DNA from: a virus
Taxonomy: Duplodnaviria > Heunggongvirae > Uroviricota > Caudoviricetes
Strand: one strand, 5' to 3'
Virus record (IMG/VR): IMGVR_UViG_3300033075_001617
Location: 13,560-77,559 of that record
Length of the DNA: 64,000 nucleotides
Notes under the pieces: model-generated
What the model was told of the DNA's origin: nothing
Database searches by the model: none
Seen by the model: the letters and a program-made list of their open reading frames with translations, nothing else
Part shown: one piece after another, positions 4,012 to 24,400 of the stretch
Position numbering within the stretch: position 1 is the first letter of the stretch
How the letters are laid out: each line of letters starts with the position of its first letter
Translations under genes and position numbers: made by a program

Positions 4012-4545
4012 CTAAGGAAAGGTTATGTAAGAGACTGGCACGTGGTCCGTGAGCCACACACCGTTGTCGGAGATGAAGAACTTGTGACCATCGTTGTGCA
4101 TGTGCTTTGCGGCCACCTCCAAGATGATGGCCTCACCCCGCCGCGTTCCGACCTTGGTGGCGGTCTCAACGTCCTTGGATAGATGCACGTGATGGCGGCT
4201 CATCTTTTGGAGACCCTCCTTCTGTATGGGGCCCAAGAACTTCTCGACCGTACCATGATAGAGGACCAGAGGCGGTACTTGCGACTTGAGGCCAAGGTCC
4301 ACATCGAGGGAGTGACCCTGTGCGGCTCTTATGCGCAGTCCGTCCTCGCTCAGGACATATCGTTTCTTGTCGTTCTCCGCCACGATGGATTCCAATTCTT
4401 CCCGCGTGACGACCTTGTTGTGCTTGGCCAGTTGCGACAGAAGCACGTCCACATCGACCCACCCCGCCTTGTCCAGTTTGATGCCTATGGTCTCAGGCTT
4501 ATGCCGCAGCACCAAGCTGAGGAATCTCGATACGTCTTTTCCCAT
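4012..4545 (-). CDS. kptA: RNA 2'-phosphotransferase Tpt1/KptA
   Basis: Near full-length match to the KptA/Tpt1 family: SRFLSLVLRHKPETIGIKLDKAGWVDVDVLL, RIRAAQGHS, LYHGT, HVHLS, GVWLT. 177 aa, typical size. Confidence 0.93.
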   Translation of the reverse strand: MGKDVSRFLSLVLRHKPETIGIKLDKAGWVDVDVLLSQLAKHNKVVTREELESIVAENDKKRYVLSEDGLRIRAAQGHSLDVDLGLKSQVPPLVLYHGTVEKFLGPIQKEGLQKMSRHHVHLSKDVETATKVGTRRGEAIILEVAAKHMHNDGHKFFISDNGVWLTDHVPVSYITFP

Positions 4546-6283: not shown

Positions 6284-6467
6284 GCGACATGGAACCTTTA
6301 TGCCCCGTCGTCCTCGGTGTGTACCGAAGTGACCTTCTTGGACCTCTTCAGCTTCTTGTGTGTGATGTTCTCGGCAAGGATATCATCTCTCATGTCCTTC
6401 ATCAAGAACTCAAGCATCTCCCATGTCAACTTCTTGCCTATCAGTGGCGCGTATTTCTTGTTATCCA

Positions 6468-6740
6468 TCATGTATTCGTATTAGCCGTAGCCGGTATAGC
6501 GTTCTTGGCGCCTCCATTCTTGAGACGCGTCATTTGCGTTTTGGATTCCATGTCAAGCTCGCCTAGGACTTCCTTCAGCGACTGGAGGAACTTGGGGTCG
6601 TTGGAGTAGACATTGATGGACCCATCAGGAGCCACTCCCATGAAGTGCTTGAGTTCTCCGTTCACCAGTACCGCCTCGAAGCGCCCGGTGTCCTTTGAGC
6701 CCCAGTTCAGTTCAATGATCCCACGTTCGTTCTTTTCCAT
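6468..6740 (-). CDS. hypothetical protein
   Basis: 90-aa ORF in the operon. Confidence 0.4.
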   Translation of the reverse strand: MEKNERGIIELNWGSKDTGRFEAVLVNGELKHFMGVAPDGSINVYSNDPKFLQSLKEVLGELDMESKTQMTRLKNGGAKNAIPATANTNT

Positions 6741-13682: not shown

Positions 13683-14626
13683 TTCACCATCACAGCGGTG
13701 GAAGAACCATCGGTCACCAGTGTCGTGGGGTTCTTTCCGTCCCAGTTGGTGACCTTCAGGTATTCGACGTAAAGCGGGGTGATCTCCTCTTTCTTGATGC
13801 GCATGGCCTCCGCCACCGCCTTGGCCTCGATCACCTTCTGGGCGCTATCGCCCTGCGCCGCCATGATCTTGTTGAGGTTGGCCATCCTGATCACTTGGTT
13901 CTGCGCCTGCTCGGCGAGGGCGTCCTGAATGGCCTTGGTCTTGTTCTCGATGGAGCTTTTCAGCGATGGCGGCGGCTCGATGCCGGTCCTGATCTGAGAG
14001 AGGGTGAACCACTCGCTCACGCGCTTGTTTATCTCCGACATCACCCGCACCTCGTACTCGGTGCGATAGTTGAAGATGCTATCGACGGACCATTGGTTGG
14101 TGACGTCGTTCACAGCGCCCACAGTGGAGTTCTTCATCCATCGCTCCTGTATCTGATCGAGGGTCATGCGCTGGCTGACGTACATGTCTCCGGCATTCGC
14201 CGCTATTACCTCGTAGTTGAAGCTAGGGGTCACCGTTACAGGGAACCCACCTTTGGCGATGGCTACCTGTCCGGGATACTCCGCGTGCTGTTGACTCGTG
14301 GGCACCTCAACTATCTGCTCGGTGAGTTCATTGTATGGCACCCATCCGGTGGCGAACTTGTATTGGTCCACACCACGGTCCTTGCCCACGAGGTTCACGC
14401 GCAGCCCCACACATCCGGCGTCGATGCGCTCCATCTTGTACGGCTGTAATATCGACACGATGATGGAGACGACAAGCAGGGTGCCAGTGACAATGAGGTA
14501 TCTCAGCTTCACCGGCATACCAGCACCCCTCGCCTGTTCCGGGGTCAACTGATTGGACTTATAGGCCAACTTGGCGTAGGTGCCTGTTATGATGAGGCAC
14601 ACAAGGAAAACAACTACACTGATCAT
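13679..14626 (-). CDS. SPFH/band-7 (stomatin/prohibitin-like) membrane protein
   Basis: N-terminal TM helix followed by a band-7-like domain with an Ala/Glu/Gln-rich coiled-coil tail. Ends 4 nt inside the start of the downstream peptidase gene. Confidence 0.6.
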   Translation of the reverse strand: MISVVVFLVCLIITGTYAKLAYKSNQLTPEQARGAGMPVKLRYLIVTGTLLVVSIIVSILQPYKMERIDAGCVGLRVNLVGKDRGVDQYKFATGWVPYNELTEQIVEVPTSQQHAEYPGQVAIAKGGFPVTVTPSFNYEVIAANAGDMYVSQRMTLDQIQERWMKNSTVGAVNDVTNQWSVDSIFNYRTEYEVRVMSEINKRVSEWFTLSQIRTGIEPPPSLKSSIENKTKAIQDALAEQAQNQVIRMANLNKIMAAQGDSAQKVIEAKAVAEAMRIKKEEITPLYVEYLKVTNWDGKNPTTLVTDGSSTAVMVK

Positions 14627-14838
14627 GGTTTGGGGGTTTTGAAGAAGGTGCCCACCAATATGGTGAGCACGGCTACAGTGACAACGAGGGAAAGCGCGCA
14701 GCCCACCACTATCAGTACCGTATAGGTGCTGGAGTTGATGAGCATCTTGAGGGACAGACCACAGCTACAGATGGCGAGGATGATGAGGATCAATCTAGCA
14801 GCGGTCCACGTTGTTTGCTTGATCATGCTTTCTCTCAT
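14623..14838 (-). CDS. small membrane protein
   Basis: Trimmed to an internal Met so it does not overlap the tRNA at 14911-14983. 72 aa, two TM helices. Confidence 0.4.
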   Translation of the reverse strand: MRESMIKQTTWTAARLILIILAICSCGLSLKMLINSSTYTVLIVVGCALSLVVTVAVLTILVGTFFKTPKP

Positions 14839-14880
14839 AGGAGAAGCAAAGATAGTAATGTATTCTGATATGAAACGAAG

Positions 14881-14910
14881 AAGGCCGGGAAATTTCCCGG
14901 CCTTCTGTTG
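14881..14910. terminator. bidirectional rho-independent terminator
   Basis: Perfect GC-rich hairpin GGCCGGGAAATTTCCCGGCC flanked by T/A-runs on both strands, between the tRNA and the downstream gene. Confidence 0.6.
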
Positions 14911-14983
14911 TGACCCGTGAGAGATTCGAACTCTCAGCCTTACGCTTAGGACGCGTGCGCTCATCCACTTGAGCTTCCGGGCC
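14911..14983 (-). tRNA. tRNA-Arg (anticodon CCT)
   Basis: Manual cloverleaf: acceptor GGCCCGG/ACGGGTC, D-arm GCTC-AAGTGGAT-GAGC, anticodon arm CACGC-GTCCTAA-GCGTA, T-arm GAGAG-TTCGAAT-CTCTC, discriminator A. 73 nt. Confidence 0.75.
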
Positions 14984-15011
14984 GATGGCGCTAAGATAGG
15001 AAAAGAAGTAT

Positions 15012-15311
15012 TCAGTCCTTCTCGATCTTCTTCAGCTTGTCGTAGTACTCCGGGTCCTCCCAGATGTGGTCCGTGGCGATCTCTCGGGCCACAGCTTCAT
15101 CGTTGGTGTGTTCCATCTCCACGTCAGTGCCCTTCCTCAACTGGCGCTTGATCAGCCAGATGCTCACACCGTGATGGTCCACTAGGTCCTGTTGGCTCTT
15201 GCCCGATGCGAGCCCTCCGGGAATGCGCTCTTGGGTTCCCTCATGGATCCACGCCCGGATGATGCTTCGAAGTTCGTCACTCATGGCAATAAATAGCCAT
15301 AAGAGGTCCAT
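15012..15311 (-). CDS. hypothetical protein
   Basis: 99-aa ORF. Confidence 0.45.
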   Translation of the reverse strand: MDLLWLFIAMSDELRSIIRAWIHEGTQERIPGGLASGKSQQDLVDHHGVSIWLIKRQLRKGTDVEMEHTNDEAVAREIATDHIWEDPEYYDKLKKIEKD

Positions 15312-15322
15312 TCAGGGTTTGT

Positions 15323-15682
15323 TCAACGCGTCAGATACAAAGCCTTGGCCAACTCTGCCGCCTTGGCCCGCTGACCCTCCTCGAAGCTCTTCTGCTTCTC
15401 CCTCAAGATCCTCTTGCGGGCCTCTGCCGGAGAAAGGCGCGTGAGCACGATCTTGTCCAGCCACTCATTGATCCGGGCCAGTGGGGCCTTCTCGTCTATC
15501 ATCTGTTGGAGCCGCTTGCCCTCGACCGTGTCCTTGAAGATCTTCATGCCCACGTCAAGGAAACAACGGGATATCCAGAATGAGACGCCATCCTGAGAAA
15601 TGTCGTTGTTTCCCTCGATCTCGAACACGAGTATCGCAGAGCACCCCTTGGGGCCGTTGCCGATGATGATGTCGTCCCACAT
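15323..15682 (-). CDS. hypothetical protein
   Basis: 119-aa ORF. Confidence 0.45.
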   Translation of the reverse strand: MWDDIIIGNGPKGCSAILVFEIEGNNDISQDGVSFWISRCFLDVGMKIFKDTVEGKRLQQMIDEKAPLARINEWLDKIVLTRLSPAEARKRILREKQKSFEEGQRAKAAELAKALYLTR

Positions 15683-15732
15683 ACGGTGTTATACGAAGAT
15701 GGACAGCGTAATGTTTCAACGTAAGAAAGGGG

Positions 15733-15768
15733 CCCCGGCGCCGGGCCCCTTTCCCCTTGAGTCAATGA
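15733..15768 (-). terminator. rho-independent terminator (GC hairpin + T-run)
   Basis: aaaGGGGCCCCGGCGCCGGGCCCCtttcc. Strong hairpin with A-run and T-run flanks, in an intergenic gap. Confidence 0.5.
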
Positions 15769-15881
15769 GCAGATGATCCCACAATCCGTGCCCGAGTCAT
15801 GAGCCTCGAACAACCCTCTGGTGCGCTTCTACGAGAGGCGTAAGGTCTACTTGTGCAAATGTAAGAGATAATGTTCAATGT

Positions 15882-16064
15882 TCAAACAGACCCGCCAGAC
15901 GCAGCGGAAAATCCGGCCATCGTCGTTCCGTCTATGCCGCCATGACCTTCGTTCTTCTTTGAGGGCCTCGGCGGGCGCTCGATCCACCACATGTAGAGCG
16001 GGCCCAAGACAATGGGAGCGATGGCGCAGATCAGTATGAATATGCCGAGCGCTTGTGTGTGCAT
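15882..16064 (-). CDS. hypothetical small membrane protein
   Basis: Internal Met chosen to avoid overlap. One TM helix. Confidence 0.3.
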   Translation of the reverse strand: MHTQALGIFILICAIAPIVLGPLYMWWIERPPRPSKKNEGHGGIDGTTMAGFSAASGGSV

Positions 16065-16072
16065 GGATGTGA

Positions 16073-16438
16073 TTATGCTTCTATCGCGACAGACTTCTTC
16101 CTCCACGAGATCATCACGTCCACCTCGTATCCACCCTTGTCATCCGGCTGGAATCCCACATGAGGATGGGTCACCTCATATCCTTCCTCTTTCAGAATGA
16201 CGCTCATTCTTGGCGACAACAAGAGCCTTGCATCGGACCTGTCCAAGACGGGGCCGTCACCATAGGATAGTATGCTCCCCTTCAAGATGATGTTGCTCCT
16301 TCCGATGGAGGCCGCCTCGCGGATCTTCGCATTGATCGAGGCAGTGGCACTCTCCTCAAGCGCATCCCACTTCTCTAGGCCTTTGGCGGTCAACTCTGCG
16401 GCCTCCTCTTTCGATATGAACTTGGTATTTGACATCAC
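16073..16438 (-). CDS. hypothetical protein
   Basis: 121-aa ORF. Confidence 0.45.
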   Translation of the reverse strand: MMSNTKFISKEEAAELTAKGLEKWDALEESATASINAKIREAASIGRSNIILKGSILSYGDGPVLDRSDARLLLSPRMSVILKEEGYEVTHPHVGFQPDDKGGYEVDVMISWRKKSVAIEA

Positions 16439-16476
16439 TATAGTGTTTGTATCAATATAGCCTATGTCGGCAGCTA

Positions 16477-16565
16477 CTCCAAATTGTGATCCCGACAGGA
16501 TTCGAACCTGTAATGTTGTCTCATCAACAACGCACGCTTAGGAGGCGTGTGCAATATCCGCTCTG
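16477..16565 (-). tRNA. type-II (long variable arm) tRNA-like gene with anticodon CCT
   Basis: Acceptor GGTCCCG/CGGGATC, anticodon arm CACGC-CTCCTAA-GCGTG, 23-nt variable arm hairpin TGTTG-ATGAGA-CAACA, T-arm ACAGG-TTCGAAT-CCTGT, discriminator A. 89 nt. Confidence 0.55.
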
Positions 16566-16594
16566 CCACGGGACCGTTTGTTGGATCGTTATGT

Positions 16595-16939
16595 TCACTC
16601 CTCACCCCACATGACCTTGCAATCGAAGTCGTATTTGGCCGGGCCGATGCTTGAAAATATGCTTGGCCAAACCACCACTCTGTACCCCTTGCTCTCAAGC
16701 AGGTTCTTCAGCTTCTTGGTCATCACAGGCGCTTTCGTAAAGCGGGAAAAACATGGAAGCCCCTCTGCGTCTGGACAACGTCCATGCATGGTTATCACCC
16801 GCTCCCCCACCATGACGGCTTTCTCCAATTCCCTCTTGAAGTTCTGCAAAGCCTTTTCTTCCATCTCTTCCGTGCTCCAGAGAGAAACACAGTTGTCGCA
16901 GGCGTCGCTGGCCTCTTTGGCTGTCATTATATCTTCCAT
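16595..16939 (-). CDS. hypothetical protein
   Basis: 114-aa ORF. Confidence 0.45.
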   Translation of the reverse strand: MEDIMTAKEASDACDNCVSLWSTEEMEEKALQNFKRELEKAVMVGERVITMHGRCPDAEGLPCFSRFTKAPVMTKKLKNLLESKGYRVVVWPSIFSSIGPAKYDFDCKVMWGEE

Positions 16940-17021
16940 CCTGCAAAGATAAGGTTACTTAGCCGTTGCTATGCAACGTTTCCGATCATCGCCGACGTGG
17001 AGGCGAACCTTGTTGATGATC

Positions 17022-17094
17022 CACACGTGGAGGGATTTGAACCCCCAACCTTCGCTTTTGGAGAGCGCCACTCTACCAGTTGAGCTACACGTGT
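17022..17094 (-). tRNA. tRNA-Trp (anticodon CCA)
   Basis: Acceptor ACACGTG/CACGTGT perfect, D-arm GCTC-AACTGGTA-GAGT, anticodon arm GCGCT-CTCCAAA-AGCGA, T-arm GGGGG-TTCAAAT-CCCTC. 73 nt. Confidence 0.7.
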
Positions 17095-17109
17095 ATTCTA
17101 CTTCTATCG

Positions 17110-17185
17110 CACGCGCTGATCGAATCGAACGATCCCACGGGAATTTGGAGTTCCCGTCGCCTTTATCCTTGGAACATTAGCGCGC
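17110..17185 (-). tRNA. tRNA-like gene with CCA anticodon loop and non-canonical D region
   Basis: Acceptor GCGCGCT/AGCGCGT (7/7 with one G-U), anticodon arm ACGGGAA-CTCCAAA-TTCCCGT, T-arm GATCG-TTCGATT-CGATC. D-arm not foldable canonically. Confidence 0.4.
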
Positions 17186-17689
17186 ATGTACTTTTGATTC
17201 CTCCTTTGATACGAACGGGGTCAGCGCGCTCTGAGGAACAAAGAACGCGTGCCTTTCATTGCCGGATGGGTCGGACCAGTACTTCTGCTGCTTACCATCC
17301 GACCCCTTGATGAAGCCTCTTATCGCGAACGTCGGCGCTTTTCCCGTGAGCAAGAAGAAGAGCGCGTCGTCGCTGTCCTTCTCGTGCAATATCAATCGCC
17401 CGGTGTTGTATGATGTGGACCTGCATTCGATGCGCAGGTCCGGCATGTTCACATCTGAGGCCTTCAGGTCACCCATGTTGCCGTTGTAGAAGCATCCAAG
17501 CGCCTTGGCCAGCACCATCTCCGCGCATGCCCCCTCGATGTGGACTCCCCATCCATCCATTGTTTCGGCGCCGTACGCGTCCTTGAGCCCATTGCCCAAG
17601 TTATGCATCTGACGCATGATGCCGTACTGTACTCCGATAAAGAACTCTGTCTTGCTCAATGTGATCTTCATATTGCAAAGATAGCACAT
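17177..17689 (-). CDS. hypothetical protein
   Basis: 170-aa ORF between tRNA-like genes. Its last codons overlap the tRNA-like element at 17110-17185. Confidence 0.45.
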   Translation of the reverse strand: MCYLCNMKITLSKTEFFIGVQYGIMRQMHNLGNGLKDAYGAETMDGWGVHIEGACAEMVLAKALGCFYNGNMGDLKASDVNMPDLRIECRSTSYNTGRLILHEKDSDDALFFLLTGKAPTFAIRGFIKGSDGKQQKYWSDPSGNERHAFFVPQSALTPFVSKEESKVHAR

Positions 17690-17698
17690 CGATTGTAG

Positions 17699-17803
17699 CA
17701 GGCCTGACAGGAGTTGAACCTGTACATCGGCAGAGAGCGGTACCTCAGTCTGCCGAAAGGAAATTTGGAGTCTCCTCGTCTCGCCACGTGAACTAGCTGG
17801 CCT
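17699..17803 (-). tRNA. tRNA-like gene with CCA anticodon loop and a 35-nt extended variable region
   Basis: Acceptor AGGCCAG/CAGGCCT (6/7), anticodon arm GGAGA-CTCCAAA-TTTCC, variable region containing hairpin GGCAGA...TCTGCC, T-arm ACAGG-TTCAACT-CCTGT. 105 nt. Confidence 0.4.
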
Positions 17804-17809
17804 GTATTG

Positions 17810-17888
17810 TACCCCCGACAGGATTCGAACCCGCGTCTTCCGCTCCGCTACAGATAACCGCTTAGAAGGCGGAACTGGCTAAGGGGGC
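17810..17888 (-). tRNA. tRNA-like gene, candidate anticodon TCT, atypical D region
   Basis: Acceptor GCCCCCT/CGGGGGT, T-arm GCGGG-TTCGAAT-CCTGT, stem-loop CCGC-CTTCTAA-GCGG. Only a 9-nt connector lies where the D-arm should be. Confidence 0.35.
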
Positions 17889-18245
17889 ATGGCGATGTGA
17901 GGGATGGGTCAGAATTTTTAAGACCTCGGTCCGCATTGGCCTTCGCCCATGCTCTTGTCGCCGTCCCCATTTCACATCATTGCACAGACGGTGGCAATCG
18001 AAACCACTCGCGAAGATTTTGGAGATCCCGCCGACACCAAGCCTGTCGTCTGTATGGCGGAGAGCACAGCATCGAAGCTGATACGGCTCATCACCGTACG
18101 ACGCGCTTAGCAGGCGGTCCCCAGCTACCTGCCGGGCTTACTCTCCATTGAATTCTGCGGAAGACAGCGTACTCGAAACGCAGTCGCTTTCACGACCTCA
18201 ACGCTTTCCAAGCGTGACCAATCCCTGACTGGTTTGTCTTCCAAA

Positions 18246-18968
18246 TTACAACACGACTTTCAATCCCATATTTTTCAGATCAGTACCCATCAGAACCTTG
18301 AGTGGAAATGGGAATTCTTCCCACTTAGCCAGATCCTGTTCCGTCTTGTATCCCTTGATCTCAACATAGCAATTCTCATCTATCAAAAAGAAGTCTGGAT
18401 AATATGTCCTCTTATCGCCGTTCCACGCATAAGAGAATCCAGTTGTGTTCGCTTTCCATCTTACTCCATTAGCATCCAACCACTTCACGTATTCTAGCTC
18501 ATATGAGCTTCGCACATATACTTTACCAGCTATGTGGCTGTTATACCATTGTTTCACTCCCCGTCCACTGCCTTCCCTCATTCCTCCAGCCTTAGGATTG
18601 CCCTTCATTGCCTTGCTGATGTTTCTTCTTCTTTTCTCTTCGGCCTCCTCAGTATTGGCACAACCAACAGGAAACCCTCTGAGTATTCTAGTTTCTATTG
18701 CCTTTTTACCATTCTCTATCCACCTAGAATCTCCTTTGAACTTCTTTCCCTTATTCCATGGCGTCTTATCAGCTTCAGCATATCCAGCGGTATTATGAAA
18801 TTGTACACCACAGAATTTTCCCTTCTTAGCCGCAGAGTCCTTACTTCTTTTTGCTGTACAAGAATTTGGTGACTTGCTGCACCCATTACCACCATTGGCA
18901 TAATGAAACAATGCTGGCAGTCCACATCCGTAATCACATAACAATTTATCCATTGTACAACATAACAC
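18246..18968 (-). mobile_element. homing-endonuclease-like gene (Zn-ribbon + PD-(D/E)XK nuclease) inserted in the tRNA cluster
   Basis: Cys-rich N-terminus (CDYGCG...C..C) and C-terminal YYPDFFLIDENCYVEIKG fitting a PD...E-x-K nuclease motif. Free-standing gene between tRNA genes. Confidence 0.5.
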
Positions 18969-19013
18969 AATGGACTTTGTAAATCAAGTCTAGCTCATCA
19001 AACCAGTATTGAG

Positions 19014-19099
19014 CGGAGGCTACTGGACTCGAACCAGTACATCGGGATCAACCGATCTCATAGTTTTCGAAACTACGTACCGCTCCTTTGGGAGCCTCC
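19014..19099 (-). tRNA. tRNA-Ser (anticodon CGA), type II
   Basis: Acceptor GGAGGCT/AGCCTCC perfect, D-loop contains AGCGG, anticodon arm GTAGT-TTCGAAA-ACTAT, variable arm ATCGG-TTGA-CCGAT, T-arm ACTGG-TTCGAGT-CCAGT, discriminator G. Confidence 0.55.
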
Positions 19100-19104
19100 A
19101 ATTG

Positions 19105-19333
19105 TCCTCTGAACGGGAATCGAACCCGCACATCCCATTGCAAATTGAACTCGGAAACGCGCTTCCCTACGGACCCCACGGCCTTTCGGTGCTTCTGCAA
19201 CCATACGCTCAATACCCCATACCGTACTTGCTCAGGCGAAGCCCTCATCGCTTTCCGTAACAGGTCTTCGGGACCATGTTCACCACATGCCACCTTTCGT
19301 TTTACGTGTGCTCTTCCGTTGAGCTATCAGAGG
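19105..19333 (-). tRNA. interrupted tRNA-like gene: 5' half and 3' half separated by ~165 nt
   Basis: 5' half CCTCTGA-TA-GCTC-AACGGAA-GAGC at 19333-19310 and 3' half GCGGG-TTCGATT-CCCGT-TCAGAGG-A at 19129-19105 have perfectly complementary 7-bp acceptor strands. Neither half has its own partner nearby. Confidence 0.4.
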
Positions 19334-19412
19334 AATACTGCGAGCGGACAGGCCCATGATTTGTGACCTTTGGCTTTAATACGGGGACGGTCATGCCGTA
19401 ACCTACCTGCTC

Positions 19413-19489
19413 TGGTGATCCCGGCAAGGCTCGAACTTGCGACTGTCAGATTAGAAATCTGATACTCTGTCCAACTGAGTTACGGGACC
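19413..19489 (-). tRNA. tRNA-Arg (anticodon TCT), CCA encoded
   Basis: Acceptor GGTCCCG/CGGGATC, D-arm ACTC-AGTTGGACA-GAGT, anticodon arm TCAGA-TTTCTAA-TCTGA (perfect), T-arm GCAAG-TTCGAGC-CTTGC, followed by A-CCA. Confidence 0.8.
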
Positions 19490-19516
19490 AATCTTACTTA
19501 ACTGAAGCAAAGATAG

Positions 19517-20107
19517 TCAATGGACCTTCGGCCAAGAGGAGACCAGCACGAATTGCTGTCCGTAGTGCTCGTGGGCGGGATTGTCAGCGCGATAGACGGT
19601 GTATCCGGAGAACCCGATATCATCGAAGGCCTGCTTGGCGTCAATGGGAAGCGTGTAGTCCCAGAACGGGCCGCGCCCATGACGCTCATCTATCTTGTGC
19701 CTGCGGATGTAGTCGTCCACGAAGTTGGCCACTTCTTCGGCGTCGAATGTCATGTCGATGTCCATATCCTCCTTCATCGGCGTTTCGGCCGGAAGATACC
19801 AGAACTCCACCACCACGCAGTCCTTCCACATTCCCTTCTTGGTGTTCCTCGCCTTGACCTTGCGGTAGCCCTTGAACCCGATGTGGTCGAAGTACTCCGC
19901 TGCTGCCAAGGGCAGGTAGTAGTCCTGCGCCTTGCCGTAGCGGGAAGAACTGAAGAGCATGTTCTCCTTGATGTACTGGCTCACCAACTCGATGGTGGTA
20001 TCGCTCAGGACATCCGGGTCATCGTCCGATGTCATCTTTCCTTCATCTCCAACTGTGATGGTCTCCAATAAGCGACGCACCAGACTCCTCAGGTCCTTCA
20101 TGACCAT
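19517..20107 (-). CDS. hypothetical protein
   Basis: ORF trimmed to Met MVMKDLRSL... so that it starts 10 nt downstream of tRNA-Ser(TGA) instead of overlapping it. Confidence 0.5.
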   Translation of the reverse strand: MVMKDLRSLVRRLLETITVGDEGKMTSDDDPDVLSDTTIELVSQYIKENMLFSSSRYGKAQDYYLPLAAAEYFDHIGFKGYRKVKARNTKKGMWKDCVVVEFWYLPAETPMKEDMDIDMTFDAEEVANFVDDYIRRHKIDERHGRGPFWDYTLPIDAKQAFDDIGFSGYTVYRADNPAHEHYGQQFVLVSSWPKVH

Positions 20108-20116
20108 AAATAGCTG

Positions 20117-20205
20117 AGGAAGGTGTGGGATTTGAACCCACGGATCGCTTGCGCGACCTTCCGCTTTCAAGGCGAATACAATAAGCCGGACTCTGCCAAC
20201 CTTCC
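20117..20205 (-). tRNA. tRNA-Ser (anticodon TGA), type II
   Basis: Acceptor GGAAGGT/ACCTTCC perfect, anticodon arm TTCGC-CTTGAAA-GCGGA, variable arm GGTCGC-GCAA-GCGATC, T-arm GTGGG-TTCAAAT-CCCAC. 89 nt. Confidence 0.6.
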
Positions 20206-20295
20206 ATGACGGGGCAGGAGCCATTCTCCCACCCCGGTTATTCACGATCCAACATGTCAATGAACGACTCCCTTCCTCACCACCGACCGCCACAA

Positions 20296-20331
20296 AAGAC
20301 GAAGGCCTCGAATCTTGCGATCGAGGCCTTC
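20296..20331 (-). terminator. 13-bp hairpin followed by CTTTTG on the minus strand (terminator-like)
   Basis: acgaaggcctcga...tcgaggccttcgt with a T-run only in the minus orientation. Function ambiguous because it lies upstream of the tRNA-Ser gene. Confidence 0.3.
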
Positions 20332-20645
20332 GTCTGGATGAGAACTGTCCTGTTCGTCACCAAGCATACCCCGCTCGCCCGTGGCTCCTAGACCACGACC
20401 AACTTGAGGATCTCGATGACTTCAGCGTCTTCATGTGACTGTAAATAGCGTCTGTTTTGCTCTTAGACGTCGACAAAGGTAGAAAAGTTTCCTCCACTAC
20501 CAAATTTTCTTGTCAAGGGTCGCCATGCGGATCAAGAAAGCACCCACCCCACCACCCTAGATGCTGCTGGATCCAATAATATGACATTGGTGAACTCCGA
20601 GTCCAGCGACTTCAGCACGACGGTTGCTCCGTAACCGAACCTCTA

Positions 20646-21164
20646 TTGAAGCGCGATGGGCCCCTAACTTGGGGCCCATCGCTATTTATGGACATGCTCA
20701 CCGAAGCCCAACGACAGCGCCTACAGAAACTCGCTGGCATCGACACCAACATCAACGATGCCTTCCGCGTGTGGTTTGGCAACAGCAAAGCCGTGACGGC
20801 GTCGGGAGAGCCTCAGGTGGTGCATCATGGGACCGCCACCAAGTTCCGCAAGTTCAATCCCAAGAAGGCCACCATGGGCGGCATCTTCTGGTTCACGTCC
20901 GACAAAGGAACCATTGAGCGCGGGGAATCCGGGGCCCAAGGCATCAAGCACATCATGGACTTGTACGTCTCGATCCAGAACCCCGCTGGCTGGGAGGAAT
21001 ACGAGAAGTTCGGGCTTGGCGAACTGAAAAACCGAGGCTACGATGGAGCCTTGCTGCCGAACAAGGATGGCAGCTTTGATGGCTTCGTCTTCGACCCCAA
21101 CCAACTCAAGAGCGTCGCCAATGATGGTTCGTGGGACCTCGACGACGACAACATCAGGTCCTGA
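20646..21164 (+). CDS. hypothetical protein (weak ADP-ribosyltransferase-like H/S/E pattern)
   Basis: Plus-strand ORF. VVHHGT, FWFTSDK and EEYEKF resemble the H-S-E pattern of ADP-ribosyltransferases. True start probably at MDMLTEAQ (20691). Confidence 0.4.
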   Translation: MKRDGPLTWGPSLFMDMLTEAQRQRLQKLAGIDTNINDAFRVWFGNSKAVTASGEPQVVHHGTATKFRKFNPKKATMGGIFWFTSDKGTIERGESGAQGIKHIMDLYVSIQNPAGWEEYEKFGLGELKNRGYDGALLPNKDGSFDGFVFDPNQLKSVANDGSWDLDDDNIRS

Positions 21165-21447
21165 CGTTCCACGGGGCGTCGATAAACCATCCTCTTTCTT
21201 GTCCCGCCCTCTGTCGGGTATTCAAGTGTTCCTTCAGGCTAAATTCGGTGATGCCGTACATCAGGATCGCCAGAGGAATGTCCAATGCCAGCACCACCCA
21301 CGCGAGAGGGTGCCAGAGGTTGATGTGCGAGTTCCATCGTCCGTCCTCCATGTATGGATGGACCACCAACAGCAACAGCAAGGCGCGGCCTAGCCATCCC
21401 ATCTGGTCCCAGCAGTGCTTCTTGCTGTAGTGCGGTTTGTAGATCAT
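21154..21447 (-). CDS. small membrane protein
   Basis: 97 aa, three predicted TM helices. Confidence 0.4.
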   Translation of the reverse strand: MIYKPHYSKKHCWDQMGWLGRALLLLLVVHPYMEDGRWNSHINLWHPLAWVVLALDIPLAILMYGITEFSLKEHLNTRQRAGQERGWFIDAPWNVRT

Positions 21448-21450
21448 GGT

Positions 21451-21717
21451 TCAGTTGAGGCACACCTTGTAGGTACCAGTAGAATCCACCATCAGCCCGG
21501 CGTACCGGTACTGCAAAAGCATCTGCGGCGGGAATGCATGGGCATGCCGCTTTCCATCCTCTCCCTTCCATACCGCTACTACGTTCTTCTCGCCAAGTCC
21601 GGCGACCATCATGGGTTTACTGGGACTTCCCTTGAGAAACACCTGCTCTCCCATCTTGAAGTCCTTGGGCTTCTTGTGTATCACTTCGTACTGCCACTGT
21701 GGCGCATCGTCTTTCAT
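21451..21717 (-). CDS. hypothetical small protein
   Basis: C-terminal part of a longer ORF. The N-terminal Arg/His-rich stretch is unlikely to be coding. Confidence 0.3.
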   Translation of the reverse strand: MKDDAPQWQYEVIHKKPKDFKMGEQVFLKGSPSKPMMVAGLGEKNVVAVWKGEDGKRHAHAFPPQMLLQYRYAGLMVDSTGTYKVCLN

Positions 21718-21734
21718 CCTACTCAAATAGAAGT

Positions 21735-21965
21735 CTACAGTATTATCTCTTCGGCATCCGGATAGAGAATGACGATGTGCGAACGGGCCGCCTCGATCGT
21801 GTCGTAACCCTTGGTGGCGTAACGCTCGGTCCATGCCATATTGCCGCCGTCGTCGATGGACTGCTCCAGCCTCACCCCATGGAAGAGGCCTGTCAGGTCG
21901 TTCGTCATGATGCACATCATGGACTGCCCACCATTTGCGTTGGCCATGTACTTCATTTCTTGAAG
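21735..21965 (-). CDS. hypothetical small protein
   Basis: Trimmed to internal Met MKYMANANGG. Confidence 0.3.
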   Translation of the reverse strand, partial: LQEMKYMANANGGQSMMCIMTNDLTGLFHGVRLEQSIDDGGNMAWTERYATKGYDTIEAARSHIVILYPDAEEIIL

Positions 21966-22150
21966 GCGAAGTACATGCCGCGCAGCAGGATGCTCACCAC
22001 CACCAATAGCGGTATGTAGGATACGGTGCGCAGGAAACCGTTGGTGGCGTTGTTGTACATCACCGCGAACAGCACCATGCAAATGACTGATACGATGTAG
22101 GGGTTCTTGAGGTATTTCATGGTTGTTGTCGATATTCGCATTTGGTACAA
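21953..22150 (-). CDS. small membrane protein
   Basis: 65 aa, two TM helices. Confidence 0.35.
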   Translation of the reverse strand: MYQMRISTTTMKYLKNPYIVSVICMVLFAVMYNNATNGFLRTVSYIPLLVVVSILLRGMYFAFKK

Positions 22151-22341
22151 TAAAGCATCTTCTCGCTATAGTAGGCGGTCTCTTTCAGGTCATGCACACA
22201 CTTGATCTGCTTGAGAAGCTTTGCTTGATCGTGCAGACGTTCCTTATCGTGAAAGGACAGTTCACTCCACCACTTCTCCATCTCTACTTTCTTGTTGGCG
22301 GTGTACAGCTTGTACTCGGCCTCGCTCAAAACGTGCATCAT
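22117..22341 (-). CDS. hypothetical small protein
   Basis: 74 aa. Contains a C-x-x-C motif. Confidence 0.4.
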   Translation of the reverse strand: MMHVLSEAEYKLYTANKKVEMEKWWSELSFHDKERLHDQAKLLKQIKCVHDLKETAYYSEKMLYCTKCEYRQQP

Positions 22342-22529
22342 TGGTCTTCTGTGTAGGGTTCATATTGCGCCATGAAGATGCCCACTAGGATCACAAGCAG
22401 AGTGCTGTAGGTCCAAGCAATGGCGGTGGAGAACGCGATGATGACCCATATGGCCAAGGTCACCTCCGCTATCCACGATGCGATGCCGACGTAAATGAGC
22501 GCCCATCCTATGCGGTTAATCGTGCTCAT
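22338..22529 (-). CDS. small membrane protein
   Basis: 63 aa, two TM helices. 4-nt overlap with the upstream gene. Confidence 0.4.
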   Translation of the reverse strand: MSTINRIGWALIYVGIASWIAEVTLAIWVIIAFSTAIAWTYSTLLVILVGIFMAQYEPYTEDQ

Positions 22530-23013
22530 AGCTTTCCACCGTTATCGTCCCATCTTTGGACACGGTGATCTGCGCGTGGTCGCCGAAGACATCCTTGTAT
22601 ATCTCGTCCGGAATGACGCTCATGGCCTCTTGCATGTTCTTCACCACGTTCTTGTCGGCTTCGCTCCAAGCCTCATCGCGGAACAGGGTGGATGAATACT
22701 GGCCATTGATGTCGAGGTATCTGTAGTTGGCGCTGAACTCGCAGGTATCCCCATCGTTGAACCATGGGGTATACTGGTTCCACGATATCGATTGTATCCT
22801 GTCCGACATGTTCATGAGCGGCATGATCAGCGATGGGAACTCCACCCGTACGTCGTTGACCAACTTCTCGCGCAGAAGTTTGAACTCCTCCACTTTCTGG
22901 AGGAACCTGCCCTTGATGTTGTCCTGAACGAGCTTCTCCCGTTCGTTCTTCAGGGCATTGATGCGGCGGTAGACCTCGTTAAGCCGTTGTGTTACTTCCT
23001 GTTCCTGTTCCAT
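22516..23013 (-). CDS. hypothetical protein
   Basis: 165 aa with a coiled-coil N-terminus. Confidence 0.5.
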   Translation of the reverse strand: MEQEQEVTQRLNEVYRRINALKNEREKLVQDNIKGRFLQKVEEFKLLREKLVNDVRVEFPSLIMPLMNMSDRIQSISWNQYTPWFNDGDTCEFSANYRYLDINGQYSSTLFRDEAWSEADKNVVKNMQEAMSVIPDEIYKDVFGDHAQITVSKDGTITVESYEHD

Positions 23014-23176
23014 TGCTCTCTTTTTTCATTATCGCTATGAGCAGCATGACATCCGCTATGGCCTTGTTGTACCCCGTGACGTACTCGCTGATCATCTTAT
23101 CCTGCAAGGACACGGACTGACGTGGCGGCTTCTTCAGCAGCGCCATGATACCCTCCTTGAGTTGTCCGATGGTCAT
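22979..23176 (-). CDS. hypothetical small protein
   Basis: 65 aa. Confidence 0.35.
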   Translation of the reverse strand: MTIGQLKEGIMALLKKPPRQSVSLQDKMISEYVTGYNKAIADVMLLIAIMKKESNGTGTGSNTTA

Positions 23177-23565
23177 GCGAACTTCAGGGTCACATTCTCG
23201 CAGACGTCTTTACGACTCTGCTTCATGTACTGGTATTGCTCTTCACGGCTGGGAGCGAAGTCCTTGGCGCGTATGTCGTGCTTGATCTCATTGAAGTCGG
23301 CATCAATGAGCACCAGTGACGCATTATCGTAGTCGTAGCCCTCATCATCATACATGCCATTGAGCCGCAGCACCGCCAGTTTGATGGGGTGTACGCTACC
23401 ATAGCGCGATAGGATGGTCTTGCGGAGCTTATCGCGCATGCCGTCCTCTCCCCATTTGTCGTCCTTGATCTCGCGGAGCCGGGCCTCAAGCTGATCTCGC
23501 TCCTCATGTAGCTGGGATAGTTCTTGGTCTATCTCCAAGAGTCTTTCATCTATGTTCATGGTCAA
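23173..23565 (-). CDS. hypothetical protein, paralogue family B member 1
   Basis: Coiled-coil N-terminus followed by RYGSVHPIKLAVLRLNGMYDDEGYDYDNASLVLIDADFNEIKHDI, which aligns with 23562-23948. Confidence 0.5.
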   Translation of the reverse strand: MTMNIDERLLEIDQELSQLHEERDQLEARLREIKDDKWGEDGMRDKLRKTILSRYGSVHPIKLAVLRLNGMYDDEGYDYDNASLVLIDADFNEIKHDIRAKDFAPSREEQYQYMKQSRKDVCENVTLKFA

Positions 23566-23948
23566 AAATTGATGGTTATGTTCTCTACGTACGGTTCTTC
23601 ATCGAACTGCTCGTAGTATTCGTATTGTTCGTCGGAGTCCGGCACGAACTGCTCCACATCGATGTTGTGGTCCACCACGCGGAAGGACGAATCCACGAGC
23701 GTGAGCGATGGATTGTACGTATTGTACTCGTCATTGTACTCGCTATTGGAGCGGAAGACCGCTACCTTGATATTGTGGCCCGCGCCGAATGCCCGCTGTA
23801 TGGCGGTCCTCAGCTTGGCCTCTATCGTGGCGGGCTTCCACATGTCGATGGCCTTACGCTTCTCCATAAGGTCAGCCCTCTTCGCGTGGAGGTCGCCTAT
23901 TTCCTCTTCTATCGCTAGAAGGCGGTCGCGTATTTCATCCTTTGTCAT
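23562..23948 (-). CDS. hypothetical protein, paralogue family B member 2
   Basis: RAFGAGHNIKVAVFRSNSEYNDEYNTYNPSLTLVDSSFRVVDHNI aligns with the neighbouring gene. Confidence 0.5.
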   Translation of the reverse strand: MTKDEIRDRLLAIEEEIGDLHAKRADLMEKRKAIDMWKPATIEAKLRTAIQRAFGAGHNIKVAVFRSNSEYNDEYNTYNPSLTLVDSSFRVVDHNIDVEQFVPDSDEQYEYYEQFDEEPYVENITINF

Positions 23949-23949
23949 A

Positions 23950-24360
23950 TCAGTCCTTGAATTGATGTACCTGCACTTTGTTCAACTCCGGATACAGCTT
24001 CTCGGCCGATGGCGGCACTCCCATTCCATTCTGCATCCACTGCTTGTATTCCATCTCCTGTATGAAATCCTGCGGCGTGGGAATGAACTTCATACGGTAG
24101 TCCTCCAATATGTGCTGCTCGCAGATGTCCTTCACCGAGGCCTTCTTGCCGGTTGACAGCGTGATATAATCCCCATAGATTGGTATCATAACTTCGTTGA
24201 TCCAAAACATGGTATGACTTATACATCTGTGCCGGTTATCGGGCACTACGGCCTTTGTGCAGTCCATCTTCTTGTGTAGCACTAAGAACTGCTGGAAGTC
24301 CTCATCTGTCTCTCCTTTGAACTTCTTCATGGAGGATTCCGCATGCTTGATAGGATTCAT
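23950..24360 (-). CDS. hypothetical protein
   Basis: 136-aa ORF. Confidence 0.5.
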   Translation of the reverse strand: MNPIKHAESSMKKFKGETDEDFQQFLVLHKKMDCTKAVVPDNRHRCISHTMFWINEVMIPIYGDYITLSTGKKASVKDICEQHILEDYRMKFIPTPQDFIQEMEYKQWMQNGMGVPPSAEKLYPELNKVQVHQFKD

Positions 24361-24400
24361 TGCGCCATAACGAATTATGACGCAAGTATACGAAGAAAAC

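What the first reader, a model, noticed from the sequence alone, without database searches (positions are those of the whole stretch)
19105..19333. tRNA genes interrupted by 75-165 nt insertions between the anticodon arm and T-arm
At three sites a canonical tRNA 5' part (acceptor-D-arm-anticodon arm) and a canonical 3' part (T-arm-acceptor) are separated by a large insertion, yet their acceptor strands remain perfectly complementary. The sites are 19105-19333 (CCTCTGA...TCAGAGG, about 165 nt between), 28934-29112 (CCTCGCG...CGTGAGG, about 110 nt) and 29176-29319 (TCGCGAT...ATCGCGA, about 75 nt). The latter two are paralogous tRNA-Ile-like genes with anticodon loops CTAATAC and CTGATAC. Their insertions share short motifs: CAGAAAG in one against CATGAAAG in the other, and CTGATGAAG against CATGATGAAG. 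The insertions are far too long for a normal variable arm. They sit after the anticodon arm, not at the canonical 37/38 intron site, and are too short for typical group I introns. They may be unusual introns or intervening sequences. That would fit the genome's Tpt1, 2H-phosphoesterase and ligase genes, which are the healing and sealing enzymes of the 5'-P tRNA-splicing pathway. Alternatively they are structured extensions that make these RNAs decoys.
Basis: seen in the sequence. Interest (0 to 1): 0.7.

Follow-up and report, generated by a model that had tools for sequence, protein, structure and literature searches.

The report
Phage tRNA look-alikes carrying conserved RNA domains
The three "interrupted tRNA genes" are real, but the inserts look like conserved, independently folding RNA domains built into tRNA-shaped non-coding RNAs rather than introns; one belongs to a large RNA family found in many phages and absent from Rfam and from the records I inspected.

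Summary
On the minus strand, three genes have a complementary 7-bp acceptor stem, a D arm and a T arm, but carry 72 to 161 extra nucleotides. The intron reading is not supported. Site 1 (19105-19333) belongs to a family of at least 27 distinct members, found in Streptomyces phages, jumbo phages and a few bacterial genomes. The family shares two invariant strands (UUGCGGAUGCACCGRA and GUAGGGAAGCGCG) on a covarying stem in the variable-arm position. An 8-12 nt AAAACGRA loop replaces the anticodon loop, so it cannot decode. No Rfam 15 family matches the insert. In several lineages the gene lies in Ro60 (TROVE)/Y-RNA gene arrays, but not in all, and no TROVE gene lies in this window. Site 2 (28934-29112) has five homologues with a covarying local anticodon arm and a closed, covarying 110-nt multi-helix domain in the variable region. 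Site 3 (29176-29319) has three homologues, and its insert could lie in the anticodon loop (37/38) or just after it. No group I, bulge-helix-bulge, hammerhead or HDV features were found. Tpt1 is present, but it fits phage RNA repair. Best reading: expanded tRNA mimics (adaptor, decoy or scaffold RNAs). The function is inferred, not shown.

The parts
19105..19333 (-). Site 1: 229-nt tRNA-shaped RNA, a member of 'family 1'. It lies 5 nt upstream of tRNA-Ser(CGA) and about 80 nt downstream of tRNA-Arg(UCU) in a tRNA array.
   Evidence: Acceptor CCUCUGA/UCAGAGG, D arm GCUC..GAGC and T arm GCGGG-UUCGAUU-CCCGU. The core matches the family profile at E = 9e-16. tRNA neighbours are.
19291..19308 (-). 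Site 1 hairpin in the anticodon-arm position, with a non-canonical loop (CAC-GUAAAACGAAAG-GUG).
   Evidence: The stem covaries across the family: 4 of 4 pairs show double changes. The loop motif AAAACGRA (AAAUGUU in two members) recurs in the 27 members read.
19130..19290 (-). Site 1 inserted domain (161 nt) in the variable-arm position. Positions 19215-19289 are an extra segment that the 148-167-nt members lack.
   Evidence: Comparison with 148-246-nt members. The enclosing stem covaries (helix 4: 5 of 6 pairs with double changes).
19185..19200 (-). Invariant 5' strand of the family-1 core: UUGCAGAAGCACCGAA (consensus UUGCGGAUGCACCGRA).
   Evidence: Invariant columns in 22 sequences. Tabulated.
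19158..19170 (-). Invariant 3' strand of the family-1 core: GUAGGGAAGCGCG. With CCGAA opposite, it gives a GAA/xGUA arrangement like a loop-E (sarcin-ricin type) motif.
   Evidence: Invariant in 21 of 22 sequences; L060 has CUAGGG. The loop-E resemblance is my reading of the sequence, not a tool result.
28934..29112 (-). Site 2: 179-nt tRNA-Ile-like RNA (anticodon loop CUAAUAC).
   Evidence: Rfam tRNA 37.3 bits. Five homologues (window, L216, L179, L189, L187).
28959..29068 (-). Site 2 inserted domain (110 nt) between the anticodon arm and the T stem. A closing stem encloses a multi-branch fold with two strongly supported hairpins.
   Evidence: RNAalifold and pair counts: 95.6% of cells paired, and 18 of 54 pairs have double changes, against 0 of 500 shuffles. 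The hairpin AUGGAGGUG..CACCUCCAU is replaced by ACAG/CUGU, CGGG/CCCG or AAGG/CCUU.
29176..29319 (-). Site 3: 144-nt tRNA-Ile(GAU)-like RNA.
   Evidence: Rfam tRNA 52.3 bits. Three homologues (window, L216, L189) with compensatory changes in the acceptor and T stems.
29211..29282 (-). Site 3 insert (72 nt) as Rfam places it, inside the anticodon loop. Alternatively it starts after the local hairpin CAUCC-UGAUACG-GGAUG.
   Evidence: cmscan alignment. The two constrained folds differ by 1.0 to 2.1 kcal/mol in all three homologues.
4012..4545 (-). Tpt1/KptA RNA 2'-phosphotransferase.
   Evidence: Pfam PF01885, E = 7e-52.

Best explanation
The three sites encode tRNA-shaped non-coding RNAs that keep their inserts. 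I call them expanded tRNA mimics. They are not split tRNA genes waiting to be spliced.

Each keeps the acceptor stem, D arm and T arm. It should therefore form the tRNA elbow, be released from the phage's polycistronic tRNA array by RNase P and 3'-end processing, and receive CCA (inferred).

Each also carries a conserved, independently folding RNA domain. At sites 1 and 2 the domain projects from the variable-arm position. At site 3 it lies in or next to the anticodon loop.

Site 1 cannot decode, because its anticodon loop is replaced by an 8-12 nt A-rich loop. Its insert presents an invariant irregular helix that looks like a protein-binding or docking site.

I infer that the tRNA body engages tRNA-handling enzymes while the inserted domain binds a partner. 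The RNA would then act as an adaptor, decoy or scaffold in phage RNA quality control, repair or counter-defence, by analogy with Y RNAs.

Shown here: the conservation, the covarying structure, the distribution, and the lack of any match to known intron or ribozyme models. Inferred: the processing, the partner and the role.
For: Site 1 family:
- There are 22 distinct members in IMG/VR and GenBank phages and 5 more in bacterial assemblies.
- The two core strands are invariant.
- The acceptor stem, the first hairpin, the enclosing stem and the T stem covary. 97% of cells are paired, and 19 of 40 pairs show double changes, against 0 of 500 shuffles and 2 to 7 pairs when partners are slid.
- The gene is unannotated in the records inspected or listed (Comrade; 'none' under 12 of 13 matches). 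In LuckySocke it lies under a 'hypothetical protein' call.
- No Rfam 15 family other than tRNA matches.
- It lies within about 0.1 to 3 kb of, and on the same strand as, TROVE/Ro60 genes in L010, L012, L041, L044, L047 and four Streptomyces phages, next to sub-threshold YrlA-like hits.

Site 2:
- The local anticodon arm covaries (CCAUC/GAUGG versus CCACU/GGUGG).
- The insert is closed by covarying helices and is far more conserved than the acceptor stem.
- Three of five homologues have C at position 37. The window copy has A34. Both are atypical for a bacterial decoder (established tRNA knowledge).

Site 3: the insert is conserved across three homologues whose T stems have changed compensatorily.

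All three sites have ordinary tRNA-array spacing.
Against: - No expression data, so retention of the inserts in the mature RNA is not demonstrated.
- At site 3, removing 72 nt leaves a perfect tRNA-Ile(GAU), and RNAalifold prefers the distal anticodon stem.
- Sites 2 and 3 keep isoleucine anticodons (AAU or GAU) across the clade. That suggests selection on decoding or on synthetase recognition.
- The Ro60 link is partial. There is no TROVE homologue in this 64-kb window. Six Comrade-like phages have family 1 but no TROVE hit. Four Ro-encoding phages have no family 1 within 10 kb of the Ro gene.
- Family 1 lacks the Y-RNA Ro-binding stem (GGUGCGAAG...UGAUCUCAG) seen in neighbouring Y RNAs.
- The base pairs inside the invariant core never vary, so its internal fold is untested.
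Confidence: 0.62

Rival explanations
1. True intervening sequences: the inserts are excised and the halves joined, by an unknown endonuclease or ribozyme plus phage healing-and-sealing enzymes (Tpt1, ligase), to give ordinary tRNAs.
For: Site 3 becomes a canonical tRNA-Ile(GAU) if 72 nt at position 37/38 are removed (52.3 bits). The distal stem UCAUC/GAUGA is perfect in all three homologues. Tpt1 is encoded at 4012-4545. A relative (L182:7594-7874) has a tRNA(UCA) with an insert of about 200 nt and a weak group I hit (23.4 bits), so introns in tRNA genes may exist in this clade.
Against: - No group I, group II, hammerhead, HDV, twister, pistol or hatchet match at E <= 10.
- The site 3 intron-like fold has a 4-nt and a 1-nt bulge separated by 2 bp, which is not a bulge-helix-bulge.
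- No splicing endonuclease was seen among about 60 ORFs scanned.
- At sites 1 and 2 the hairpin adjacent to the insert covaries, and removing the insert from site 1 still leaves no anticodon loop.
- ARAGORN's introns are inconsistent between homologues.
- Tpt1 in phages is accounted for by RNA repair (PMC7824862).
Confidence: 0.1
2. Sites 2 and 3 are working isoleucine tRNAs that keep a giant variable-arm or anticodon-side domain while decoding. The domain acts as a regulatory or protein-recruiting tag.
For: The anticodon is AAU or GAU in all eight site 2 and site 3 genes. The window's site 2 has a 7-nt loop with U33 and A37. Engineered tRNAs tagged with a small hairpin aptamer are reported as translationally active in the abstract of PMC7590224 (listed; I did not read the paper).
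Against: Three of five site 2 homologues have C37 and a stem that can extend into the loop. A34 is not used for isoleucine in bacteria (established knowledge). Position 1 is U or C. A 110-nt multi-helix domain is far larger than any natural variable arm. Site 3's local anticodon hairpin is out of register.
Confidence: 0.15
3. Site 1 (family 1) is specifically a Ro60-binding Y RNA: a non-permuted counterpart of YrlA whose inserted helix is the Ro60 binding site.
For: It is adjacent to TROVE genes on the same strand in at least five independent lineages. TROVE occurs in only 91 of 50,697 phage records, yet 6 of the 13 records with family 1 have it. The core contains CCGAA, which resembles the Ro-contact motifs GNCGAA and GGUCCGA (PMC4201824).
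Against: It lacks the canonical Ro-binding stem that neighbouring Y RNAs have. It is present without TROVE in Comrade-like phages, and in 8-kb Myxococcota loci that show no TROVE match. It is absent near Ro genes in four phages. Ro genes sit inside tRNA arrays anyway, so proximity may be incidental. No TROVE gene lies in this window.
Confidence: 0.2
4. Decayed tRNA pseudogenes disrupted by small mobile insertions.
For: Short direct repeats flank the site 2 and site 3 inserts, for example GAUGG-AGGUUG and GAUGA-AGUAGUUG (read directly from the sequence).
Against: The inserts lie at the same position in phages whose neighbouring FtsH-like proteins are only about 59-65% identical to the window's. 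Their helices show compensatory changes. The tRNA stems remain intact.
Confidence: 0.03

Closest known systems
YrlA / bacterial and phage Y RNAs (Rfam RF02553; Chen et al. 2014, PMC4201824)
   Same: Non-coding RNAs with tRNA-like D and T arms. They are encoded in phages near Ro60 (TROVE) genes. Family 1 lies in the same arrays in several lineages.
   Different: YrlA is circularly permuted: its ends form the Ro-binding stem and the 'acceptor' is a closed stem-loop. The RNAs here have an open acceptor stem like real tRNAs and carry their extra domain in the variable-arm position. The YrlA model does not match them. The GNCGAAN0-1G / UGAUCUCAG stem is absent.
Class II tRNAs, tRNA-Sec, allo-tRNAs and engineered aptamer-tagged tRNAs (PMC5389517, PMC7590224; titles and abstracts only)
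   Same: An extra helix emerges between the anticodon arm and the T arm (sites 1 and 2).
   Different: Natural variable arms are single hairpins of about 10-25 nt (from memory). These domains are 72-161 nt, multi-helix and sequence-conserved. Site 1 has no anticodon loop.
tRNA genes with introns: bacterial group I introns in anticodon loops (e.g. PMC13011429) and archaeal bulge-helix-bulge introns at non-canonical positions (PMC3241643)
   Same: A tRNA gene with complementary acceptor halves separated by a long insert. The site 3 insert can be placed at 37/38.
   Different: No group I core, no bulge-helix-bulge motif, and no endonuclease found. The inserts at sites 1 and 2 lie outside the anticodon loop and are flanked by a covarying local hairpin.
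tmRNA
   Same: A tRNA-like acceptor and T arm with a large structured insert between the 5' and 3' tRNA-like parts.
   Different: These have an intact D arm, no tag reading frame and no pseudoknot series. They are 144-229 nt long. ARAGORN reports no tmRNA in the window.
Phage T4 stable RNAs 'species 1 and 2' (rnaC/rnaD) in the T4 tRNA cluster (from memory; not checked here)
   Same: Stable RNAs of unknown function encoded within a phage tRNA cluster and processed with the tRNAs.
   Different: No sequence comparison was made, so any relationship is untested.
Theta (minimal HDV-like) ribozymes next to phage tRNAs (PMC10879173)
   Same: Structured RNA elements physically joined to phage tRNA genes. 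One candidate lies at 16950-17021 in this window.
   Different: Theta ribozymes lie downstream of the tRNA and cut at its 3' end. The inserts here are internal and match no HDV model.

Membership tests
Group I intron in a tRNA gene | Conserved P3-P9 catalytic core detectable by Rfam RF00028; length usually at least about 200 nt | tested here: not met
   No RF00028 match at E <= 10 in 14000-31000, 19100-19340 or 28850-29800. The inserts are 72-161 nt. Only a different gene in a relative (L182) gives a weak hit of 23.4 bits.
Group I intron in a tRNA gene | Insertion within the anticodon loop | tested here: inconclusive
   Possible for site 3 only. At sites 1 and 2 the insert follows a covarying hairpin.
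Archaeal/eukaryal protein-spliced tRNA intron | Bulge-helix-bulge: two 3-nt bulges holding the splice sites, separated by a 4-bp helix | tested here: not met
   In the intron-like fold of site 3 the 5' junction lies in a 4-nt bulge and the 3' junction in a 1-nt bulge, 2 bp apart.
Archaeal/eukaryal protein-spliced tRNA intron | A splicing endonuclease (EndA/Sen) available in the system | tested here: inconclusive
   None among about 60 window ORFs scanned against Pfam. The scan was not exhaustive and the host is unknown.
Canonical decoding tRNA | 5-bp anticodon stem with a 7-nt loop, U33 and a purine at 37 | tested here: not met
   Site 1 and its family have 8-12 nt loops with AAAACGRA (two members AAAUGUU) and no U33. 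Site 2 meets it in the window (CUAAUAC), but three of five homologues have CUGAUCG with C37. Site 3 meets it only if 72 nt are removed.
Canonical decoding tRNA | Acceptor stem, D arm and T arm with the conserved U8, A14, GG and GTTCRA elbow nucleotides | tested here: met
   T8 and A14, a G in the D loop, and the T-loop letters G, T, T, C and A (GTTC.A) are invariant columns in A2. A purine follows the C in every row. Sites 2 and 3 score 37 and 52 bits on RF00005.
YrlA / Y RNA | 5' and 3' ends pair to form the Ro60-binding stem carrying GNCGAAN0-1G; the tRNA-like part is permuted (V-T-AS-D) | tested here: not met
   The ends form an acceptor stem and the order is D, hairpin, domain, T. RF02553 gives no hit on site 1, and only a 14.8-bit partial hit spanning the gap between two adjacent genes in the site 2/3 array. 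Neighbouring genuine Y-like RNAs in L012 show the stem that family 1 lacks.
YrlA / Y RNA | Encoded within about 4 kb of a Ro60 (TROVE) gene on the same strand | tested here: inconclusive
   Met in L010, L012, L041, L044, L047 and in LuckySocke, Alone3, GiJojo and pSt2308. Not met in this window, in Comrade-like phages or in Myxococcota loci. Absent near the Ro gene in four phages.
Hammerhead ribozyme | Conserved CUGAUGA and GAAA core around three helices | tested here: not met
   No Rfam hammerhead hit. CUGAUGA in site 2 reads CGAUGA or CGUUGA in homologues. There is no room for a stem I hairpin.
tmRNA | tRNA-like ends plus a tag-peptide reading frame and pseudoknots | tested here: not met
   ARAGORN (tRNA and tmRNA mode) reports none in the window. 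Only stray sub-threshold Rfam tmRNA fragments were seen.
Class II (long variable arm) tRNA | A single stem-loop of about 10-25 nt between positions 44 and 48 | tested here: not met
   The position is the same for sites 1 and 2, but the domains are 110-161 nt with several helices. They resemble class II tRNAs in topology only.

The most novel reading that the evidence does not exclude
Site 3, and perhaps its paralogue, is a genuine tRNA intron of a new kind in a bacteriophage. It would be a 72-nt structured insert at position 37/38 of tRNA-Ile(GAU), cut out by an unrecognised nuclease or ribozyme activity and resealed by a phage healing-and-sealing pathway that leaves a 2'-phosphate for the encoded Tpt1 to remove. 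That would be protein-dependent, fungal/plant-style tRNA splicing in a bacterial virus.
Probability: 0.07. Interest if true: 0.9.

Novelty: new variant of a known kind. Interest (0 to 1): 0.62.

Why it matters
Phage tRNA arrays are usually read as codon-supply or anti-defence tRNA sets. These data indicate they also hold tRNA-shaped RNAs with large, conserved add-on domains.

One of these, family 1, is widespread. It occurs in Streptomyces phages, jumbo phages and some Myxococcota genomes. It is unannotated, or overlaid by a 'hypothetical protein' call, in GenBank records, and it is absent from Rfam 15.

If it is an adaptor or decoy for tRNA-handling or RNA-surveillance proteins, it gives a new handle on how phages manipulate host RNA quality control. 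It also gives a natural example of tRNA scaffolds carrying functional RNA modules.

It is directly testable, because cultured phages such as Comrade and LuckySocke carry it.

Tried and rejected
- **Hammerhead idea** (CUGAUGA plus GAAA in the inserts). Rejected: there are no Rfam hits, the motif is not conserved in homologues and the topology is impossible.
- **5S rRNA loop-E / L25-site mimicry** for the family-1 core (CCGAAUGG...GUAGGGAA resembles E. coli 5S CCGAUGG...GUAGGGAA, recalled from memory). No 5S_rRNA hit appeared even in a 241-nt search at E <= 10. I keep it only as a resemblance to the generic loop-E motif.
- **Pseudoknot** between the A-rich loop (AAAACG) and CGUUUU after the 3' core strand. 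L035a fits (AAAAGCG with CGCUUUU), but Comrade and LuckySocke (UUAU tails) do not. Left unproven.
- **ARAGORN intron mode.** It gives Ser(gga), Ile(aat), Leu(gag), Val(aac) and Arg(tct) calls with different intron positions for homologous genes, so it is uninformative.
- **Covariance model R1 of the whole RNA.** It also picks up ordinary tRNAs and misaligns the long members, so I did not use it for pair counts.
- **IMG/VR searches.**
  - The peptide-pattern search found no relatives of the FtsH-like neighbour.
  - The site 2 and site 3 patterns gave only chance matches.
  - Homologues came instead from protein look-ups in Logan/ENA assemblies and one metagenome scan.
- **Genome-collection scan.** Only 5 of the 120 loci it returned match the core profile. 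About 130 chance matches are expected for that pattern, by my own arithmetic.
- **TROVE in the window.** None by tblastn with two phage TROVE queries at E <= 10.
- **Conserved protein neighbour of family 1.** Apart from TROVE, only HNH endonucleases recur. The Myxococcota neighbours are unrelated housekeeping genes.

Full report
**What is there**

All tRNA genes in this window read on the minus strand, and so do the three flagged elements. I scanned for a T arm, a perfectly complementary 7-bp acceptor stem up to 330 nt upstream, and a D stem. The scan returns the ordinary tRNAs plus exactly three long elements: 19333-19105 (229 nt), 29112-28934 (179 nt) and 29319-29176 (144 nt).

Rfam's tRNA model scores the last two at 37.3 and 52.3 bits. 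The first is missed by both Rfam and ARAGORN. All three lie in tRNA arrays with normal spacing. Site 1 ends 5 nt before tRNA-Ser(CGA).

**Site 1 belongs to a large RNA family that I found neither in Rfam nor annotated in GenBank records**

A blastn search of the region against GenBank phages matched about 50 nt inside the insert to unannotated intergenic DNA of Streptomyces phages. Reading those loci showed the same architecture: acceptor stem, D arm, a hairpin, a long insert, T arm, acceptor stem.

Pattern scans of IMG/VR followed by a profile search gave 22 distinct members of 148-246 nt. A scan of one genome per species added five more, three of them in Myxococcota or Deltaproteobacteria assemblies with no tRNAs or phage genes nearby.

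Features of the family:
- Two strands are invariant: UUGCGGAUGCACCGRA and GUAGGGAAGCGCG. A variable hairpin separates them, and they sit on a stem that emerges where a variable arm would.
- On the nine short members the consensus fold has 97% of cells paired. 19 of 40 pairs show changes on both sides, against 0 of 500 shuffles and 2-7 pairs when partners are slid. The covariation lies in the acceptor stem, the first hairpin, the enclosing stem and the T stem.
- The pairs inside the invariant core never vary, so its internal fold is untested.
- The hairpin in the anticodon-arm position has an 8-12 nt loop with a conserved AAAACGRA and no U33. These RNAs therefore cannot decode, whether or not anything is removed.
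- No Rfam 15 family other than tRNA matches any member.

**Link to Ro60**

Clustering ORFs around 21 family members picked out a TROVE/Ro60 protein with a vWA domain, confirmed by Pfam.

Where the link holds:
- The RNA gene lies about 0.1-0.3 kb upstream of the TROVE gene, on the same strand, in L010, L012 and L041.
- It lies about 2.5-3 kb away in L044, L047 and four Streptomyces phages.
- Sub-threshold YrlA-like hits lie beside it.
- L012 shows a run of Y-RNA-like units with the stem GGUGCG(A/C)AG...UGAUCUCAG.

Where it does not hold:
- Family 1 lacks that stem.
- Six Comrade-like phages have the RNA but no TROVE hit.
- Four Ro-encoding actinophages have no family member within 10 kb of the Ro gene.
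- This window has no TROVE homologue, although a relative does (L232).
- Ro genes sit inside tRNA arrays in any case.

I therefore treat a Ro60 partnership as a lead with a probability of about 0.2, not a finding.

**Sites 2 and 3 are clade-specific**

No relatives were found in GenBank phages or IMG/VR. I found homologues by looking up contigs that encode relatives of the adjacent FtsH-like protein (45-65% identity) and by one metagenome scan.

Site 2 has five distinct homologues:
- Their acceptor stems differ almost completely, yet the insert is about 85-90% conserved.
- The local anticodon arm covaries (CCAUC/GAUGG versus CCACU/GGUGG).
- The insert is closed by a covarying 3-bp stem that abuts the T stem. 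It contains further helices, including a hairpin whose stem changes GAGG/CCUC to ACAG/CUGU, CGGG/CCCG or AAGG/CCUU.
- Overall 95.6% of cells are paired, and 18 of 54 pairs have double changes, against 0 of 500 shuffles.

So the site 2 insert is a 110-nt domain in the variable-arm position. The anticodon is AAU (window, L189) or GAU. Three homologues have C at position 37.

Site 3 has three homologues with compensatory T-stem and acceptor changes and a conserved insert. Two folds are possible:
- A distal anticodon stem UCAUC/GAUGA, which places the insert at 37/38. Rfam and RNAalifold choose this one.
- A local hairpin shifted by one base.

Their constrained energies differ by 1.0 to 2.1 kcal/mol in all three homologues, and the few substitutions fit both. 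Site 3 is unresolved.

**Testing the intron reading**
- The inserts match no group I, group II, hammerhead, HDV, twister, pistol or hatchet model, even in short, permissive searches.
- The hammerhead-like CUGAUGA is not conserved.
- Site 3's intron-like fold is not a bulge-helix-bulge.
- ARAGORN's intron mode gives mutually inconsistent calls for homologous genes.
- No splicing endonuclease appeared among about 60 ORFs scanned.
- Tpt1/KptA (4012-4545), a macro domain, a NUDIX protein, an ADP-ribosyltransferase and an ATP-dependent ligase are present. In phages this set is explained as repair of RNA cut by host RNases (PMC7824862).

The gene content therefore does not argue for splicing.

**Most likely mechanism**

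These are expanded tRNA mimics. The tRNA body should allow excision from the array and recognition by tRNA-binding enzymes. The insert is a conserved module for a partner protein or RNA.

Shown here: conservation, covarying architecture, distribution, non-decoding loops (site 1), and the absence of any match to known intron or ribozyme models. Inferred: processing, retention of the insert, the partner and the role.

The closest known systems are Y RNAs of the YrlA type, which are tRNA mimics in Ro60 arrays but circularly permuted (PMC4201824). Class II tRNAs and engineered aptamer-tagged tRNAs come next. The membership tests for YrlA, group I introns, bulge-helix-bulge introns, hammerhead ribozymes, tmRNA and class II tRNAs fail on at least one defining feature each.

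**Verdict**

The finding is real and more interesting than an annotation quirk, but the favoured interpretation (introns) is not supported. The residual chance that site 3 is a new kind of intron is about 7%.

Caveats:
- Sites 2 and 3 rest on few homologues.
- There are no expression data.
- I could not search the subscription literature, so prior description of family 1 cannot be excluded.

Noticed in passing
window 16950-17021 (-): HDV-like ribozyme match (RF02682, 34.7 bits, below the gathering score of 44). It starts one base after the 3' end of tRNA-Trp (17022-17094). This is the arrangement described for theta ribozymes that cut phage tRNA 3' ends (PMC10879173).
   Followed up: partly
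window 29689-29758 (-): tRNA with anticodon CUA (amber suppressor type; ARAGORN labels it 'Pyl'), 27.7 bits on the Rfam tRNA model. Counterparts with a CUA anticodon sit in relatives' arrays (L179 5358-5430, L190). It hints at stop-codon recoding or suppression.
   Followed up: no
window 28871-28928, 29119-29162, 29401-29445, 29325-29396 (all -): Four small tRNA-like 'minihelices' (acceptor stem plus T arm, 44-72 nt) interleave with sites 2 and 3. One has a GAAA-capped hairpin where the anticodon arm would be. They are conserved, with compensatory acceptor changes, in relatives (L179, L184, L185, L176, L216). One type is always preceded by GUUCUUUGA.
   Followed up: partly
L176 7280-7427 and about 7612-7795; L178 about 7675-7825; L185 about 665-845: A fourth type of expanded tRNA-like gene occurs in relatives of this phage. 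It has a different conserved insert (ACAUUGAAACAUGGAAAG-hairpin-CGGAACAUGCGUAGGUG) and a weak T arm.
   Followed up: no
L182 7594-7874 (also L183 7439-7719): A relative carries a tRNA with anticodon UCA and an insert of about 200 nt in the anticodon loop that gives a weak group I intron hit (23.4 bits, gathering score 50). A TnpB-like gene lies just downstream.
   Followed up: no
L361 about 6461-6674, L400 about 3390-3605, L348 about 7400-7650: Family-1 RNAs occur as stand-alone genes in Myxococcota/Deltaproteobacteria assemblies, beside ordinary genes (glutathione synthetase, TPR protein, peptidases). There are no tRNAs nearby, so the family is not restricted to phages.
   Followed up: partly
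L002 1454-1608 (OR725497.1, gene 22): In Streptomyces phage LuckySocke the family-1 RNA gene lies under an annotated 'hypothetical protein' CDS (gene 22), which is probably a mis-annotation.
   Followed up: no
window 54216-54947 (-): GIY-YIG/NUMOD3 homing-endonuclease-like ORF beside the ribonucleotide reductase genes (50797-53277 and 53285-54298).
   Followed up: no
window 17700-18053 (-): Further weak tRNA-like signals: a tRNA at 17810-17888 (23 bits), a tRNA-Sec-like hit at 17701-17802 (22 bits) and a 70-nt element at 18053-17984. They suggest more non-canonical tRNA-like genes in the first array.
   Followed up: no
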